From the sequence record PQ615101: DNA of 64,000 nucleotides, one strand, 5' to 3'. The notes beneath the pieces were generated by a model. That model was not told where the DNA came from. It saw only the letters and a program-made list of their open reading frames with translations, and ran no database searches. The position numbers and the translations under genes are program-made. Position 1 is the stretch's first letter. Every line of letters starts with the position of its first letter. Below are positions 5,984 through 59,504 of the stretch, piece by piece. This DNA is from Shigella phage SP21535.

Positions 5984-6271
5984 ATGAAAACTTTCAAAGA
6001 ATTTACTTCTACAACTACCCCGGTTTCTACTATTACCGAAGCTACTCTTACTTCTGAGGTTATTAAAGCAAATAAAGGACGAGAAGGTAAACCAATGATT
6101 AGTCTGGCTGATGGTGAAGAAATCAAAGGTACTGTTTACCTAGGTGATGGGTGGTCTGCTAAAAAGGATGGTGCTACAATCGTTATCTCTCCTGCTGAAG
6201 AAACTGCGTTGTTTAAAGCTAAACACATTTCTGCGGCACATCTCAAAATTATTGCTAAAAATCTTTTGTAA
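5984..6271 (+). CDS. ipI: internal protein at the ipI locus
   Basis: 95 aa (T4 IPI is 95 aa); N-terminus MKTFKEF.. resembles capsid targeting sequence; body differs from T4 IPI. Confidence 0.6.
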   Translation: MKTFKEFTSTTTPVSTITEATLTSEVIKANKGREGKPMISLADGEEIKGTVYLGDGWSAKKDGATIVISPAEETALFKAKHISAAHLKIIAKNLL

Positions 6272-7916: not shown

Positions 7917-8582
7917 ATGTTCCATTACACTTATAAAATAACAAATAAAATTAATAATAAAATTTATATTGGTGTGCATTCTACCGAAAATTTAGATGAT
8001 GGATATATGGGTTCTGGTAAATTATTAAAAAGAGCCCAAGACAAGTATGGTATAGAAAATTTCTCTAAAGAAATATTAGAGTATTTTGATGATAAAGAAT
8101 CTATGCTTGAAGCCGAGAAAAATATTGTCACAGAAGAGTTTTTAAATAGACCAGATGTGTATAATTTAAAACTTGGCGGTGAAGGTGGATGGGACCATAT
8201 AAATATTCCTGGGATGCTAAACCAGAAGAAAGATGCTAGCTTAAAAGGAGCTAAATCGTTTAAATCACGTTTTGAAAATGATATTTTACTTCAAGAAAAA
8301 TATCGTAAAATTGGTTCAAATGTATTTAAACGTTTGTGGTCAACTCCTGAATACAAGGAAAAATTTTTAAATAATAGCAGATTTTTAAATAAGCATCATA
8401 CTCCTGAAACTATTAATAAAATGAAAGAAATTCACGCTAAAAATAATCACCAGAAAGGAGAAAAGAATTCCCAATTTGGTATGATGTGGATTCATTCATT
8501 AGATGAAAAAGTTTCTAAACGTATTAAGAAAACTGACCCAATTCCAGAAGGATGGTTTAAAGGTCGAAAAATGAAATTTTAA
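7917..8582 (+). CDS. segB: GIY-YIG homing endonuclease SegB
   Basis: 221 aa inside the tRNA cluster as in T4; YKITNKINNKIYIGVHSTENLDDGYMGSG GIY-YIG motif. Confidence 0.85.
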   Translation: MFHYTYKITNKINNKIYIGVHSTENLDDGYMGSGKLLKRAQDKYGIENFSKEILEYFDDKESMLEAEKNIVTEEFLNRPDVYNLKLGGEGGWDHINIPGMLNQKKDASLKGAKSFKSRFENDILLQEKYRKIGSNVFKRLWSTPEYKEKFLNNSRFLNKHHTPETINKMKEIHAKNNHQKGEKNSQFGMMWIHSLDEKVSKRIKKTDPIPEGWFKGRKMKF

Positions 8583-8585
8583 TTA

Positions 8586-8662
<77 letters not shown>

Positions 8663-8975: not shown

Positions 8976-8980
8976 CTTTA

Positions 8981-9008
8981 GCCCCGACCGAAAGGTTGGG
9001 GCTTTTTG
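8981..9008 (+). terminator. rho-independent terminator (GAAA tetraloop hairpin + T-run)
   Basis: GCCCCGACC-GAAA-GGTTGGGGC followed by TTTTTGG. Confidence 0.8.
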
Positions 9009-9009
9009 G

Positions 9010-9017
9010 TATAAATA
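9010..9017 (+). promoter_or_regulatory. late promoter TATAAATA
   Basis: Exact TATAAATA 40 nt upstream of ATG 9057. Confidence 0.6.
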
Positions 9018-9056
9018 TAGTAGTATATTAAATCACGAATTAAAACAGGAAATAAG

Positions 9057-9515
9057 ATGAAATCATATGCTCAATTTTTAAATGAAGCATCCGCTTCAGA
9101 TGTTCGCGCTGTAGCAACTGCTGCTATTAAAGCTGGTAAATATTCTTATAAAGATGCTTCTGACGAATCTCGGTACAAGTTCTACGACGATATGAGAGCT
9201 GAAGGCTTTGTGGGTAACTATGTTACCACCGCCTGGAAAAGCCTGGTTGCTACTGGTGCGGCTTTCGAAAAACCTTCTGGTAAACCTGCTCCTAAGGCTG
9301 ACCCTAAAGCAGCACAAGAAAAAAATATTGCTAAAGGAATTATTTCTAGGTATGAAGCAATTCTTAAAGAACTTTTGGTAATTAAGACCGAAGGCCAGAA
9401 ACTTGCGCGAGCTCATAGTTTCAAAGATAACCCACATGCTCATGACCTAGAGTATGTTGAAGATCTCCAAAAAATCATCAAAGACCGCATTTGGTCTGCT
9501 AAACAAATTAAATAA
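9057..9515 (+). CDS. internal-protein-like protein with N-terminal capsid targeting sequence
   Basis: 152 aa; N-terminus MKSYAQFLNEA fits the MKTYQEFIAEA targeting motif of T4 internal proteins; late promoter upstream. Confidence 0.6.
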   Translation: MKSYAQFLNEASASDVRAVATAAIKAGKYSYKDASDESRYKFYDDMRAEGFVGNYVTTAWKSLVATGAAFEKPSGKPAPKADPKAAQEKNIAKGIISRYEAILKELLVIKTEGQKLARAHSFKDNPHAHDLEYVEDLQKIIKDRIWSAKQIK

Positions 9516-9523
9516 CATTCTTA

Positions 9524-9549
9524 GCCCCAGCCGAAAGGTTGGGGCTTTT
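9524..9549 (+). terminator. rho-independent terminator, near-duplicate of 8981-9008
   Basis: GCCCCAGCC-GAAA-GGTTGGGGC then TTTTGG. Confidence 0.8.
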
Positions 9550-9725: not shown

Positions 9726-9989
9726 ATGGATAATTACGGCGAACTGTTCAACTTCTTTATGAAATGCGTTTCAGAAGATTTCGGTCGTACAGTGAATGAT
9801 ATTAAAGTTATCGGTCCTGATCATCCGATGTTTGAAACTTACGCAGTAATGGGTAATGAAGATGGTCAGTGGTATACTGTAAAGGTTGTGATTAACATGT
9901 TCACTGCTGAAAGTTATGTTAAACTGTCTTCTAAAGTTTACCATGATAACGACGAAATCGCAGAAGAATATTTCAATAATATGAAATAA
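9726..9989 (+). CDS. hypothetical protein
   Basis: Track ORF 9672..9989; likely start ATG 9726 behind GGAGAA, 87 aa. Confidence 0.55.
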   Translation: MDNYGELFNFFMKCVSEDFGRTVNDIKVIGPDHPMFETYAVMGNEDGQWYTVKVVINMFTAESYVKLSSKVYHDNDEIAEEYFNNMK

Positions 9990-10044: not shown

Positions 10045-10575
10045 ATGTCTCTTTATACCGAACTGAATGAAACTTCCGAAAAATCTTTTGATGGTATCTT
10101 ATCAATAATGCAAAAGCAGGTATTAGAACAGCTTAGTGAAGCCGCAAGCAACGGACATAAGGCTTGTCGAATCCCAAGCCCACATCGTCGCCTGTATGAA
10201 CGCCCTCTTATTAATTGGCTAGAAAGCGAAGGTCTTACAGTTAAGATTTGTCCTGCCAAATTTGATGTCCCACGTATTCTTAATATTTACTGGGATAAAC
10301 CGATTGAGAAACCGATTGAGAAAAGTGAACCTTGGGTTGTCAATGTAAAAACATATGATAATGGATGCTCACTTGAGGTGTCTGCTGTAATTAAAGGCAC
10401 TCACGGTGAAAAATCGTGGGGTTGGCCTGGTAAAGATAAAGAAATCGTGTTAAGTGTAAAAGCTACTAGTATTAGTACTCCTATAGCTAAAAGCATTATC
10501 GCCGCCGCTGTTGAAGAAGCTGAACGAATTTGTAAAATTAAAAATAGTTTACATCTCTTAAATAGCATGATATAA
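10045..10575 (+). CDS. hypothetical protein
   Basis: 176 aa; GAGG SD; contains an in-frame 12-bp tandem duplication (KPIEKPIE). Confidence 0.6.
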   Translation: MSLYTELNETSEKSFDGILSIMQKQVLEQLSEAASNGHKACRIPSPHRRLYERPLINWLESEGLTVKICPAKFDVPRILNIYWDKPIEKPIEKSEPWVVNVKTYDNGCSLEVSAVIKGTHGEKSWGWPGKDKEIVLSVKATSISTPIAKSIIAAAVEEAERICKIKNSLHLLNSMI

Positions 10576-14100: not shown

Positions 14101-14575
14101 ATGAAAACATATCAAGAATTTATTACTGAAGCAGCTATTAATTCTCAAAATTATTGCTGAATCTTTTACTGATCTTTTGAAATTTAAAAAAGGACAGAAA
14201 ATTACTGCTGTATTAGATGATGGTACAGAAGTTGAGATGGATGTACAGGGATATAATTATGCAGTAGATGGAAAACTGTATAATAAATCTCATGCTAAAT
14301 TTGATTCATTTGATGATTTTGTTAATACAGTTGAAGATGAAAAAACTCGTCGATCCATTGCAACTGGTGATGCTAAGGTTCTTATGGCGCATGGACATGA
14401 ACGTATTCGCGCTAAACAGAATAAAATGGGTGAAGATAATTTCGCATTAGTTGGTTATCAATCTGGTAAACAAACTTATGGTTATCAGCGTACTGCTACC
14501 ATGTATAATAAAAATGGTAAAATCGCTTTCGTGAATAGTAAAGGTTCTATTCAGTACGTTAAATCGTTCAAATAA
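14101..14575 (+). pseudogene. internal-protein-like gene (MKTYQEFITEA targeting motif) interrupted by a frameshift
   Basis: ATG frame stops after 19 codons (..AINSQNYC*); downstream 132-aa frame is open from 14105 but has no ATG; shift maps near A4 run 14147-14150. Confidence 0.5.
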
Positions 14576-14716
14576 TATGGGAACAACCTGGACCTCATGA
14601 TTCTGTGAGGGATTCCCGCCAACCTGTAATAAGGTCGAGCCCAAGTGCGGTAATGGGTAAATACAGAAATGGACAATTCATGCGCCATGGAATGGCCCAA
14701 ATTTAGAGAGAATAAA

Positions 14717-15259
14717 ATGAGAACATTTTTAACTGGTCCTTATCTATCCCTGATGAATGCTTTTACACACCATTCTGATGCTAGAGTAGAAGAAATTTGT
14801 AATAGTGGATTTTATGTACCTGATTCGTCGCATTTATTTAAAGAATATTGTACACTTCGACTAGACGGTGGACGTCAATCCGGTAAATCAACTGCAGTAA
14901 CTAATTTTGCCGCTAATTGGTTGTATGATGGTGGAACAGTTATTGTTCTTTCTAATACTTCAGCTTACGCTAAAATTTCTGCGGGCCGCATTAAAAAAGA
15001 ATTTTCTCGTTATTCTAGCGATGATATTCGATTCCGTTTATTTACTGATTCTGTCCGTAGTTTTGTTGGTAATAGAGGTAGCAAGTTCAGAGGTTTATCG
15101 CTTTCTCGAATTTTGTATATAATCGATGAGCCTGTTAAATCTCCTGATATGGATAAAATTTACGATATTCATATTGAAACTGTGCAACACTGCTGCAATA
15201 GTAAATGCTGCATTGGTGGTATTACTCGTCCACAGTTTTTCATAATCGGAATGCAATGA
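14717..15259 (+). CDS. P-loop NTPase-like protein
   Basis: Walker A GGRQSGKST; track ORF 14669..15259, ATG 14717 has GAGAG SD. Confidence 0.55.
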   Translation: MRTFLTGPYLSLMNAFTHHSDARVEEICNSGFYVPDSSHLFKEYCTLRLDGGRQSGKSTAVTNFAANWLYDGGTVIVLSNTSAYAKISAGRIKKEFSRYSSDDIRFRLFTDSVRSFVGNRGSKFRGLSLSRILYIIDEPVKSPDMDKIYDIHIETVQHCCNSKCCIGGITRPQFFIIGMQ

Positions 15260-59339: not shown

Positions 59340-59504
59340 ATGAAAACATATAAAGAATTTATTAAAGAAGATATGGTAGCTGGAGATTCAGGTGGTAATC
59401 CTGAAAATATCTCTACTGGAACAACGTCAGGCGCTGTAGTAAATAAAGGTCCTGAACAGATTCCTAAAAAGAAAAAAGAGGAATCTAAAGAAAAAGAAGA
59501 GTAA
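59340..59504 (+). CDS. small acidic protein with capsid-targeting-like N-terminus
   Basis: 54 aa by manual translation; MKTYKEFIKED.. resembles the MKTYQEFIAEA targeting motif. Confidence 0.4.
   Translation: MKTYKEFIKEDMVAGDSGGNPENISTGTTSGAVVNKGPEQIPKKKKEESKEKEE

What the first reader, a model, noticed from the sequence alone, without database searches (positions are those of the whole stretch)
8981..9549. Capsid-targeting-sequence gene in a self-contained late cassette flanked by duplicated terminators
Two near-identical GAAA-tetraloop terminators (8981-9008 and 9524-9549, about 30 of 32 nt shared) bracket a late promoter (TATAAATA 9010-9017) and a 152-aa ORF whose N-terminus MKSYAQFLNEA matches the capsid targeting motif of T4 internal proteins. 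The flanking direct repeats are the kind of sequence that could move such a cassette by recombination. Internal proteins are injected with the DNA, and T4 IPI is known to block a modification-dependent restriction system, so this is a candidate counter-defence effector.
Basis: partly seen in the sequence, partly recalled or inferred. Interest (0 to 1): 0.6.

Follow-up and report, generated by a model that had tools for sequence, protein, structure and literature searches.

The report
Unnamed T4-type internal-protein gene cassette
A T4-like phage carries, between its tRNA cluster and gene e.8, a small late-expressed gene whose product has the leader that sends proteins into the phage head for injection. 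The gene is bracketed by two copies of one terminator and is gained, lost or swapped among relatives, so it is an unnamed member of a known class of likely anti-defence proteins.

Summary
Two near-identical GAAA-tetraloop terminators (8978-9006 and 9521-9549) bracket a TATAAATA late promoter (9010-9017) and a 152-aa ORF (9057-9515).

The window is a Tequatrovirus. T4, T2 and PST have one terminator and no gene at this site, so the unit is a 543-bp indel bounded exactly by the repeat.

The N-terminus MKSYAQFLNE|A fits the four experimentally critical capsid-targeting positions (Y4, F7, L8, E10). It ranks third of 1599 Met-started peptides in the window, level with true IPI. The leader is kept in relatives down to about 33-48% identity.

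The gene is under purifying selection (dN/dS 0.07-0.19). Its divergence is uncoupled from the neighbouring e.8 gene. The site holds zero, one or two CTS genes of three types, all in phrog_2280, in different phages.

No fold or family match suggests a function, and every public record sampled calls these proteins hypothetical.

Packaging, cleavage, injection and any anti-restriction role remain inferences, drawn by analogy with Ip1-3, which inhibit GmrSD enzymes. Shuffled IP cassettes have been known since 1994. This is therefore a new member at a third locus, with a late promoter rather than an early one. Interest is moderate.

The parts
8978..9006 (+). Upstream copy of the repeated intrinsic terminator (stem 8980-9003, GAAA loop, T-run). 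In T4 it is the single terminator that ends the tRNA/rnaD/rnaC transcription unit.
9010..9017 (+). T4-type late promoter TATAAATA. It overlaps the GGTAT end of the repeat and ends 39 nt before the ATG.
   Evidence: Its position is conserved in 18 of 19 related genes.
9047..9052 (+). Shine-Dalgarno sequence AGGAAA. The AGGA core lies 6 nt before the ATG.
   Evidence: Read from the sequence. The motif CAGGAAA is conserved in relatives.
9057..9086 (+). Codons 1-10, MKSYAQFLNE: the capsid-targeting leader. Cleavage by the prohead protease gp21 is predicted after Glu10 (LNE|A).
   Evidence: The critical positions are taken from PMC9026906.
9057..9515 (+). 152-aa ORF including its stop codon, an A-type member of phrog_2280. 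The predicted mature protein is residues 11-152, 15.7 kDa, pI 9.4. It has an N-terminal three-helix bundle, a Lys/Pro/Ala linker and a C-terminal helical hairpin.
   Evidence: dN/dS is 0.07-0.19.
9521..9549 (+). Downstream copy of the terminator (stem 9523-9546). It is followed by GGTATCTAGG, the sequence that follows the single terminator in T4.
8586..8662 (+). Context: tRNA-Arg, the last tRNA of the cluster. The rnaD/rnaC homologous region follows, up to the first terminator.
9726..9989 (+). Context: gene e.8, the conserved downstream flank of the variable site.

Best explanation
This is a gene for a T4-type internal head protein, carried as a small late-transcription module at a variable site between the tRNA/rnaC unit and e.8.

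Proposed steps:
- The upstream terminator stops early transcripts coming from the tRNA cluster.
- RNA polymerase carrying the phage late sigma factor gp55 starts at TATAAATA, and the downstream terminator ends the message before e.8.
- The protein's first ten residues bind it to the scaffolding core of the assembling prohead.
- The prohead protease gp21 cuts after Glu10.
- The basic 142-residue mature protein stays in the head with the DNA and is injected with it.
- By analogy with Ip1, Ip2 and Ip3, its most likely task is to disarm a host defence that meets the incoming modified DNA, probably a type IV restriction enzyme variant.
- The module is gained, lost and exchanged among co-infecting T-even-like phages by recombination within the repeated terminator, and sometimes within the conserved leader-coding sequence.

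Shown here: the anatomy, the fit of the leader, purifying selection, presence/absence and swapping at the repeat, and mosaic divergence.

Inferred: late transcription, packaging, cleavage, injection and the anti-defence role.
For: Anatomy.

T4, T2 and PST have the empty site with one terminator, so the indel equals one repeat plus promoter plus ORF. The T4-like empty junction is found in only 91 of 727 matching phage records. The terminator occurs at 1263 places in 804 records.

Leader: T4 IPII and IPIII start MKTYQEFIAE|A. The ORF shares M1, K2, Y4, F7, E10 and A11, with conservative changes at S3, Q6 and L8. It ranks third of 1599 peptides, level with true IPI. Residues 4 and 7 govern targeting and residues 8 and 10 govern processing (PMC9026906). 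The leader is kept in relatives at 33-48% identity and in all cluster members sampled. AlphaFold leaves residues 1-9 disordered ahead of a folded body.

It is a real gene: dN/dS is 0.07-0.19.

Exchange: against L004, e.8 has dS 0.02 while the ORF has dS 0.99. Against L010, e.8 has dS 1.05 while the ORF has dS 0.36. The identity profile is mosaic, with a breakpoint at the 5'UTR and leader in phage G8.

Site configurations: A only, B only (RB69, RB14), A plus B, C, or empty, all joined at the terminator.

Late promoter position is conserved.

The mature protein is small and basic, like T4 IPs.

Ip1-3 are each specific GmrSD inhibitors (PMC12373910). IPIII acts in the cytoplasm without its leader (bioRxiv 10.1101/2022.04.14.488369).
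Against: - No virion proteomics, cleavage or injection data were found for this family.
- There is no sequence or fold similarity to IPI, to other known anti-restriction proteins or to any solved structure. The function therefore rests on analogy alone.
- Seven further ip genes (ip4-10), tested alongside T4's Ip1-3 against newly found GmrSD variants, showed no reproducible inhibition (PMC12373910). Not every IP need be a GmrSD inhibitor.
- Experts who labelled other IPs in RB69, PST and T6 did not label this family.
- TATAAATA alone is no more frequent in the window than chance.
- Gene 61.1, in an early-gene neighbourhood, also carries a good leader. A leader-like N-terminus may therefore not be sufficient evidence of packaging.
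Confidence: 0.68

Rival explanations
1. The protein is a packaged internal protein, but its job is physical rather than anti-defence. As a basic protein with a Lys/Pro/Ala-rich linker, it would help neutralise or organise DNA in the head or assist ejection, and it has no specific host target.
For: The mature protein has pI 9.4 and a KPSGKPAPKADPKAAQEK linker. The C-type relative has a much longer PAK-rich linker, with a weak TonB-like low-complexity hit. No similarity to any inhibitor was found. The review PMC3012670 reports lysines of internal proteins contacting DNA phosphates.
Against: The gene is dispensable in T4, T2 and PST. It also comes in swapped, fast-diverging alleles and types. That pattern is typical of arms-race genes rather than housekeeping head components. 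All three T4 IPs that have been tested turned out to be specific inhibitors (PMC12373910).
Confidence: 0.17
2. The leader is a recombination relic and the protein is not packaged. It would act inside the producing cell late in infection, for example in assembly, lysis timing or superinfection exclusion.
For: Leader-coding DNA is shared among ip genes and is itself a recombination breakpoint. In G8 the ORF is 97% identical to the window while the 5'UTR and leader differ. Gene 61.1, which sits among early genes, also carries a leader-like N-terminus.
Against: The leader is kept under selection in relatives at 33-48% identity, with Y/F4, F7, L8 and a Glu at 10 or 11 always present. Many alleles carry a second LNE|A site in tandem, as expected for a propeptide that must be removed. 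Late timing matches prohead assembly. The first 10 residues of IPIII suffice to target foreign proteins (PMC9026906).
Confidence: 0.1
3. The duplicated terminators say nothing about mobility. The filled site would be simply ancestral, and a few lineages such as T4 would have lost the gene by chance deletion. The repeats would exist only because each transcription unit needs a terminator.
For: The filled state is the majority: 636 of 727 records lack the T4-like empty junction. The family occupies the same site in Tequatrovirus, Mosigvirus and Dhakavirus. There is no recombinase or homing enzyme inside the unit.
Against: A deletion between the repeats is itself repeat-mediated recombination. 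ORF divergence is uncoupled from e.8 in both directions. Three gene types occur in four filled arrangements at one junction. The GA/AG stem variants swap position between loci, comparing the window with L004. Together these need repeated exchange, not a single loss.
Confidence: 0.05

Closest known systems
T4-type internal proteins (IPI, IPII, IPIII of T4; Ip4-Ip10 and beyond of other T-even phages; Repoila et al. 1994, EMBO J 13:4181, as cited in PMC12373910 and PMC2839356)
   Same: - A ~10-residue N-terminal capsid-targeting leader ending in Glu.
- A small, basic, non-essential protein.
- Presence and identity vary among close relatives.
- The genes are bracketed by conserved regulatory blocks with stem-loops that can mediate shuffling.
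   Different: - It lies at a third site (rnaC terminator | e.8), not at 57B-trna.4 or e-denV.
- It has no sequence or fold similarity to any named IP.
- It is driven by a canonical late promoter placed directly after a strong GC-rich terminator. The classical IP elements are described as based on early promoters with weaker AT-rich stem-loops (PMC2839356), and ipI-IV have no perfect TATAAATA within 120 nt upstream.
- Packaging has not been shown.
Ip1/Ip2/Ip3 as inhibitors of GmrSD type IV restriction enzymes (Bair and Black 2007; Silas et al. 2025, PMC12373910)
   Same: The presumed delivery route is the same: the protein is injected with glucosyl-hmC DNA. The evolutionary pattern of variable, subtype-specific accessory genes is also the same.
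   Different: No target is known. There is no homology to IPI (PF11634) or to other inhibitors. The fold is a two-domain all-helical protein with a flexible linker, whereas IPI* has a compact alpha/beta fold (PMC3012670).
PeSL mobile regulatory cassettes of T4-type phages (Arbiol et al. 2010, PMC2839356; Comeau et al. 2014, PMC4122927)
   Same: A repeated promoter-plus-stem-loop motif flanks small accessory ORFs. Indels and replacements between close relatives have their ends in the repeats.
   Different: Here the motif is a stem-loop followed by a late promoter, not an early sigma-70-like promoter followed by a stem-loop. Only two copies occur in 64 kb. Mini-circle intermediates were not examined.

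Membership tests
T4-type internal (injected) head proteins | An N-terminal capsid-targeting sequence of about 10 residues resembling MKTYQEFIAE. Residues 4 and 7 are needed for targeting. | tested here: met
   MKSYAQFLNE has Y4 and F7. Its score of 33.0 compares with a mean of -3.0 (sd 6.8) over 1599 peptides, ranks third, and equals true IPI. The critical positions come from PMC9026906.
T4-type internal (injected) head proteins | A gp21 prohead-protease site at the end of the leader (Leu/Ile-x-Glu, then cut). Residues 8 and 10 are needed for processing. | tested here: met
   L8-N9-E10|A11 is read from the sequence and conserved in the family. Actual cleavage cannot be tested here.
T4-type internal (injected) head proteins | Physical presence of the processed protein in the mature head, and injection with the DNA. 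| not testable with these tools
   No proteomic report was found.
T4-type internal (injected) head proteins | A small, basic, dispensable protein that varies among close relatives. | tested here: met
   The mature protein is 15.7 kDa with pI 9.4, against pI 9.0-9.7 for T4 IPs. It is absent from T4, T2 and PST. Alleles and types vary.
T4-type internal (injected) head proteins | Located in one of the two classical polymorphic IP loci (57B-trna.4 or e-denV). | tested here: not met
   It lies between the rnaC terminator and e.8. This is a positional habit of the family, not a functional requirement.
IPI family (Pfam PF11634, GmrSD inhibitor) | Sequence or fold homology to IPI*. | tested here: not met
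   There is no Pfam hit, while the window's own ipI (5984-6271) hits PF11634 at 6e-53. There is no fold match.
PeSL-type mobile regulatory cassette | Direct repeats of a promoter/stem-loop motif flanking an accessory ORF, with indels between relatives ending in the repeats. | tested here: met
PeSL-type mobile regulatory cassette | The motif contains an early (sigma-70-like) promoter followed by the stem-loop. | tested here: not met
   Here the stem-loop is followed by the late promoter TATAAATA. No sigma-70-like site lies at the repeat.
PeSL-type mobile regulatory cassette | Excised mini-circles carrying the ORF plus one repeat. | not testable with these tools
   This needs inverse PCR on infected cells or on virion DNA.
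Intrinsic (rho-independent) terminator | A GC-rich stem, a short loop and a 3' U-run. | tested here: met
   Each copy has a 10-bp stem with 7 GC pairs, a GAAA loop and a T4-5 run. Free energies are -22.1 and -20.6 kcal/mol, with z-scores of -4.2 and -4.9.
T4 late promoter | TATAAATA at about -10, with no -35 element needed. | tested here: inconclusive
   A perfect octamer sits at 9010-9017, and its position is conserved in 18 of 19 related genes. The octamer is not enriched in the window, and transcription was not measured.

The most novel reading that the evidence does not exclude
The rnaC|e.8 junction is a third, so far unrecognised internal-protein locus of T-even-like phages. T4, T2 and PST lack it, but about seven in eight sequenced relatives have it filled. 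It would hold late-promoter cassettes of a two-domain helical protein family (phrog_2280, types A, B and C) that is injected and disarms a host defence not covered by Ip1-3. The target would be either an untested GmrSD subtype or a different first-response system.
Probability: 0.3. Interest if true: 0.6.

Novelty: new member of a known kind. Interest (0 to 1): 0.4.

Why it matters
Internal proteins are the first phage molecules to meet host immunity. All three T4 IPs have now been shown to be specific inhibitors of different GmrSD restriction enzymes. The ip4-10 genes tested alongside them still have no known target.

This family is present in several hundred sequenced T-even-like phages, many of them candidates for therapy or biocontrol. 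It is labelled 'hypothetical' in every record sampled, probably because the model phages T4, T2 and PST lack it.

Recognising it adds a cheap, testable candidate host-range determinant. T4 itself is a natural null background for gain-of-function tests.

It also gives a clean natural example of accessory-gene exchange at a terminator repeat. It does not reveal a new principle.

Tried and rejected
- **Function by homology.** Pfam, NCBIfam and PADLOC gave nothing. PHROGs gave only phrog_2280, of unknown function. A PDB sequence profile gave only spurious helical-repeat hits. An exhaustive HMMER search of 1.8 billion representatives found 8 proteins, all phage relatives or fusion fragments.
- **Function by fold.** The AlphaFold model (pLDDT 78.8) has no significant PDB match; the best, E 0.2 and TM 0.22, is ferritin-like noise. 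In BFVD it matched only its own family.
- **Identity with a named IP.** PST IpIV has the same length (157 aa) as the common allele but is unrelated. It is instead the intact form of the window's broken gene at 14101-14575.
- **Proteomic support in the literature.** The fPS-2 paper has no proteome. Searches by leader sequence, by accession numbers and by T4-like virion mass spectrometry found nothing relevant.
- **Papers not available.** Repoila et al. 1994 is not held, and Comeau et al. 2007 could not be read. I cannot exclude that the latter's list of more than 30 IP variants already includes this family.
- **Transposon-like insertion with target duplication.** Rejected: the repeat is 29-35 nt, it is a functional terminator, and the unit encodes no mobility enzyme.
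- **Minus-strand ORF 9096-9443.** Treated as spurious, because the plus-strand frame shows strong purifying selection.

Full report
**What the window is.** The region matches Tequatrovirus genomes; the closest is Escherichia phage vB_EcoM_SYGD1 at 99.6%. The plus strand of the window corresponds to the minus strand of T4. The gene order is 57B, ipI (5984-6271, Pfam IPI_T4 at 6e-53), trna.4-2, eight tRNAs with segB, the rnaD/rnaC region, the finding, e.8 (9726-9989), and then the e.x genes, nudE and e.

**Checking the observation.** Two terminator-like hairpins are found at 8980-9003 and 9523-9546. Each has 10 pairs, a GAAA loop and a T-run, and they fold at -22.1 and -20.6 kcal/mol with z-scores of -4.2 and -4.9.
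- As direct repeats, 8978-9006 and 9521-9549 share 27 of 29 nt. With one T indel the repeat continues through GGTAT.
- The two differences (GA versus AG in the 5' arm) exchange an A-U and a G-U pair, so both stems remain intact.
- There are exactly two copies in 64 kb, and none in 100 shuffles.
- TATAAATA lies at 9010-9017, AGGAAA at 9047-9052, and the 152-codon ORF at 9057-9515.
- The octamer alone is not enriched in the window (13 found, 10.8 expected), so its significance rests on position, discussed below.

**The unit is an indel bounded by the repeat.** T4 has a single terminator at this place. Its stem equals the window's upstream copy, and its 3' flank (GGTATCTAAG) equals the sequence after the window's downstream copy. 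The window therefore carries 543 extra bases, equal to one repeat plus promoter plus ORF.
- PST and T2 are also empty.
- A T4 junction probe is covered at 80% or more in only 91 of 727 matching phage records. In the rest the match stops at the end of the terminator. The terminator occurs at 1263 places in 804 records. A tblastn search finds the ORF in 511 records.
- The filled state is therefore the majority, and the classical model phages are the exceptions.

**The site holds different cassettes.** I surveyed loci fetched through the flanking e.8 gene, together with annotated records. The configurations are:
- A-type gene only (152-157 aa): the window, fPS-2, G8, L004, L008, L010 and L012.
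- A followed by a 187-aa B-type gene: L006, L007 and L013.
- B only: RB69, where it is split into ORF149c and ORF148c, and RB14, where it is intact.
- A 205-aa C-type gene: JS98 and IME281.
- Empty.

All three types begin with a leader of the form MK[ST]Y..FL..E and all match phrog_2280. In pairwise comparison, however, A and B share only the leader. C shares a C-terminal motif (L[DE]TPDLY) with distant A-like proteins, which suggests domain shuffling.

Junctions between modules fall in or just after the terminator T-run: term-A-term-GGTATCTAGG, term-A-term-B-term', and term-B-term'. In Tegunavirus fHe-Yen9-01, a C-like and an A-like gene sit in tandem behind one TATAAATA. A Klebsiella phage has an A-like gene just after its tRNAs.

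**Evidence for exchange.** Nei-Gojobori estimates give dN/dS of 0.07-0.19 for the ORF in 13 pairwise comparisons, so it is a real, constrained gene.
- Its divergence is uncoupled from e.8, which lies 210 bp away. Against L004, e.8 has dS 0.02 and the ORF 0.99. Against L010, e.8 has dS 1.05 and the ORF 0.36.
- Segment identities are mosaic. In G8 the ORF is 97% identical to the window, but the 5'UTR is only 52% identical and the leader differs (MKTYAQFLMTE). This places a breakpoint in the leader region.
- The GA/AG stem variants occupy opposite positions in the window and in L004.
- Together these results point to repeated homologous exchange, and to deletion between the repeats, rather than a single ancestral event.
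- The unit encodes no mobility enzyme. The segB homing endonuclease about 400 bp upstream (7917-8582) could promote co-conversion of this site. That is an inference from what is known of SegB and was not tested.

**The leader.** T4 IPII and IPIII start MKTYQEFIAE|A, and IPI starts MKTFKEF.... Other annotated IPs (PST IpIV-VI, T6 Ip5 and Ip6, T2 Ip7) follow the same pattern.
- I scored every Met-started peptide in all six frames against five annotated 10-residue leaders. The ORF ranks third of 1599, with a score of 33.0 against a mean of -3.0 and sd 6.8. It ties with the window's true IPI.
- The ORF ranks behind only a broken ipIV homolog and gene 61.1.
- Amber-suppressor experiments by Mullaney and Black, as summarised in PMC9026906, place targeting at residues 4 and 7 and processing at residues 8 and 10. 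The ORF has Y4, F7, L8 and E10.
- The first 10 residues of IPIII suffice to carry foreign proteins into heads (PMC8442874).
- The leader persists in relatives at 33-48% identity.
- Most A alleles carry a tandem FLNEAVLNEA, that is, two cleavage motifs. The window allele, shared with SYGD1 and LH2, lacks five residues.

**Expression signals.** A perfect TATAAATA, or AATAAATA, ends 26-40 nt before the start codon in 18 of 19 genes of types A, B and C across Tequatrovirus, Mosigvirus, Dhakavirus, Tegunavirus and a Klebsiella phage. The exception is the second gene of an operon.
- By contrast, ipI, ipII, ipIII and ipIV have no perfect octamer within 120 nt upstream.
- Arbiol et al. describe the classical IP-associated elements as based on early promoters with weak AT-rich stem-loops (PMC2839356).
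- The present module therefore differs from them. A strong terminator insulates it from the early tRNA transcripts, and it appears to be expressed late only, which matches the time of prohead assembly.

**The protein.** The mature form would be 142 residues, 15.7 kDa and pI 9.4, similar to T4 IPs at pI 9.0-9.7.
- AlphaFold (10-sequence alignment, pLDDT 78.8) predicts a disordered leader, a three-helix N-domain (13-66), a flexible Lys/Pro/Ala linker (70-82) and a long helical hairpin (83-149).
- No significant match exists in the PDB or among viral models outside its own family, nor in Pfam, NCBIfam, PADLOC or PDB sequences.
- All named cluster members that were listed are called 'hypothetical', apart from one evidently spurious label. 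This includes records whose annotators did label other IPs, namely RB69, PST and T6.

**What is known.** Repoila et al. (1994) described two highly polymorphic IP loci in T-even phages, a conserved leader, and conserved flanking blocks proposed to mediate shuffling. I could not read the paper and rely on citations of it in PMC12373910, PMC2839356, PMC4122927 and PMC3012670.
- More than 30 IP variants are said to be known (Comeau et al. 2007, cited; not read).
- IPI* inhibits GmrSD. Ip2 and Ip3 each inhibit a different GmrSD variant. The same study tested ip4-10 as well and found no new reproducible inhibitory interaction.
- IPIII works in the cytoplasm without its leader.

**Verdict.**
- What remains unproven is packaging, cleavage, injection and the target.
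- The finding is a new, unnamed member of the internal-protein class, or strictly a family of three related types. It sits at a third variable locus and has a late-promoter/terminator architecture that differs from the classical IP cassettes.
- It does not show a new principle. I rate interest at 0.4.
- The most novel reading still open is that this family targets a defence outside the known Ip-GmrSD pairs. I give that a probability of about 0.3.

Noticed in passing
window 14101-14575: This is a homolog of PST ipIV (phrog_3155, 'internal virion protein') with a perfect leader, MKTYQEFITEA. It is broken by one extra A (A4 at 14147-14150, against A3 in PST), so the frame stops after 19 codons and the rest reads in the +1 frame. 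The best database relatives are 610 nt against the 611-nt query, so the frameshift looks specific to this genome. It is either a pseudogene or a sequencing error. The window also has no ipIII or ipII after gene e.
   Followed up: partly
window 59340-59504: Gene 61.1 (54 aa, immediately upstream of primase gene 61) starts MKTYKEFIKE|D. This is the second-best capsid-targeting score in the window. T4's own 61.1 starts MKTFKEFIKED. It lies among early anti-toxin genes (dmd, 61.2/adfA) and has no known function. Whether this small peptide is packaged is an open question.
   Followed up: partly
window 9659/9660: 31 bp present in T4, RB69, L013 and apparently in all close relatives are missing here. 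The missing stretch includes the GTTTACA -35 element of the early promoter in front of e.8, while the -10 region remains.
   Followed up: partly
window 10045-10575: A 176-aa gene (phrog_6869, unknown function) occupies the place of e.7. This segment is only about 45% identical to the other loci compared, so it is a replaced module directly downstream of e.8.
   Followed up: partly
public proteins P0011 and P0012 (relatives of window 9057-9515): These are chimeric proteins. P0011 joins the N-terminal part of trna.3 to the last 30 residues of the ORF, which implies a deletion removing the whole tRNA cluster. P0012 joins the first 30 residues of the mature ORF to NudE, which implies a deletion of e.8 through e.2. 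They look like natural or laboratory deletion derivatives with end points inside this gene.
   Followed up: no
L020 (RB69, NC_004928) 73428-73990: The B-type gene is split into RB69ORF149c and ORF148c in the reference genome, while RB14 has it intact (187 aa). This reflects a frameshift in RB69 or in its sequence.
   Followed up: partly
window 14669-15259: A 196-aa ORF (phrog_1488, with a weak hit to the ATPase region of large terminases) follows the broken ipIV gene. T4 has ipII and denV at the corresponding place.
   Followed up: no
L002 (phage G8) 2564-3244, also T2 (L018 3463-4371): About 365 extra bases lie between tRNA-Arg and the first terminator compared with the window. They are annotated as a 116-aa hypothetical ORF overlapping the rnaD/rnaC region. 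This is a second indel polymorphism next to the site.
   Followed up: no
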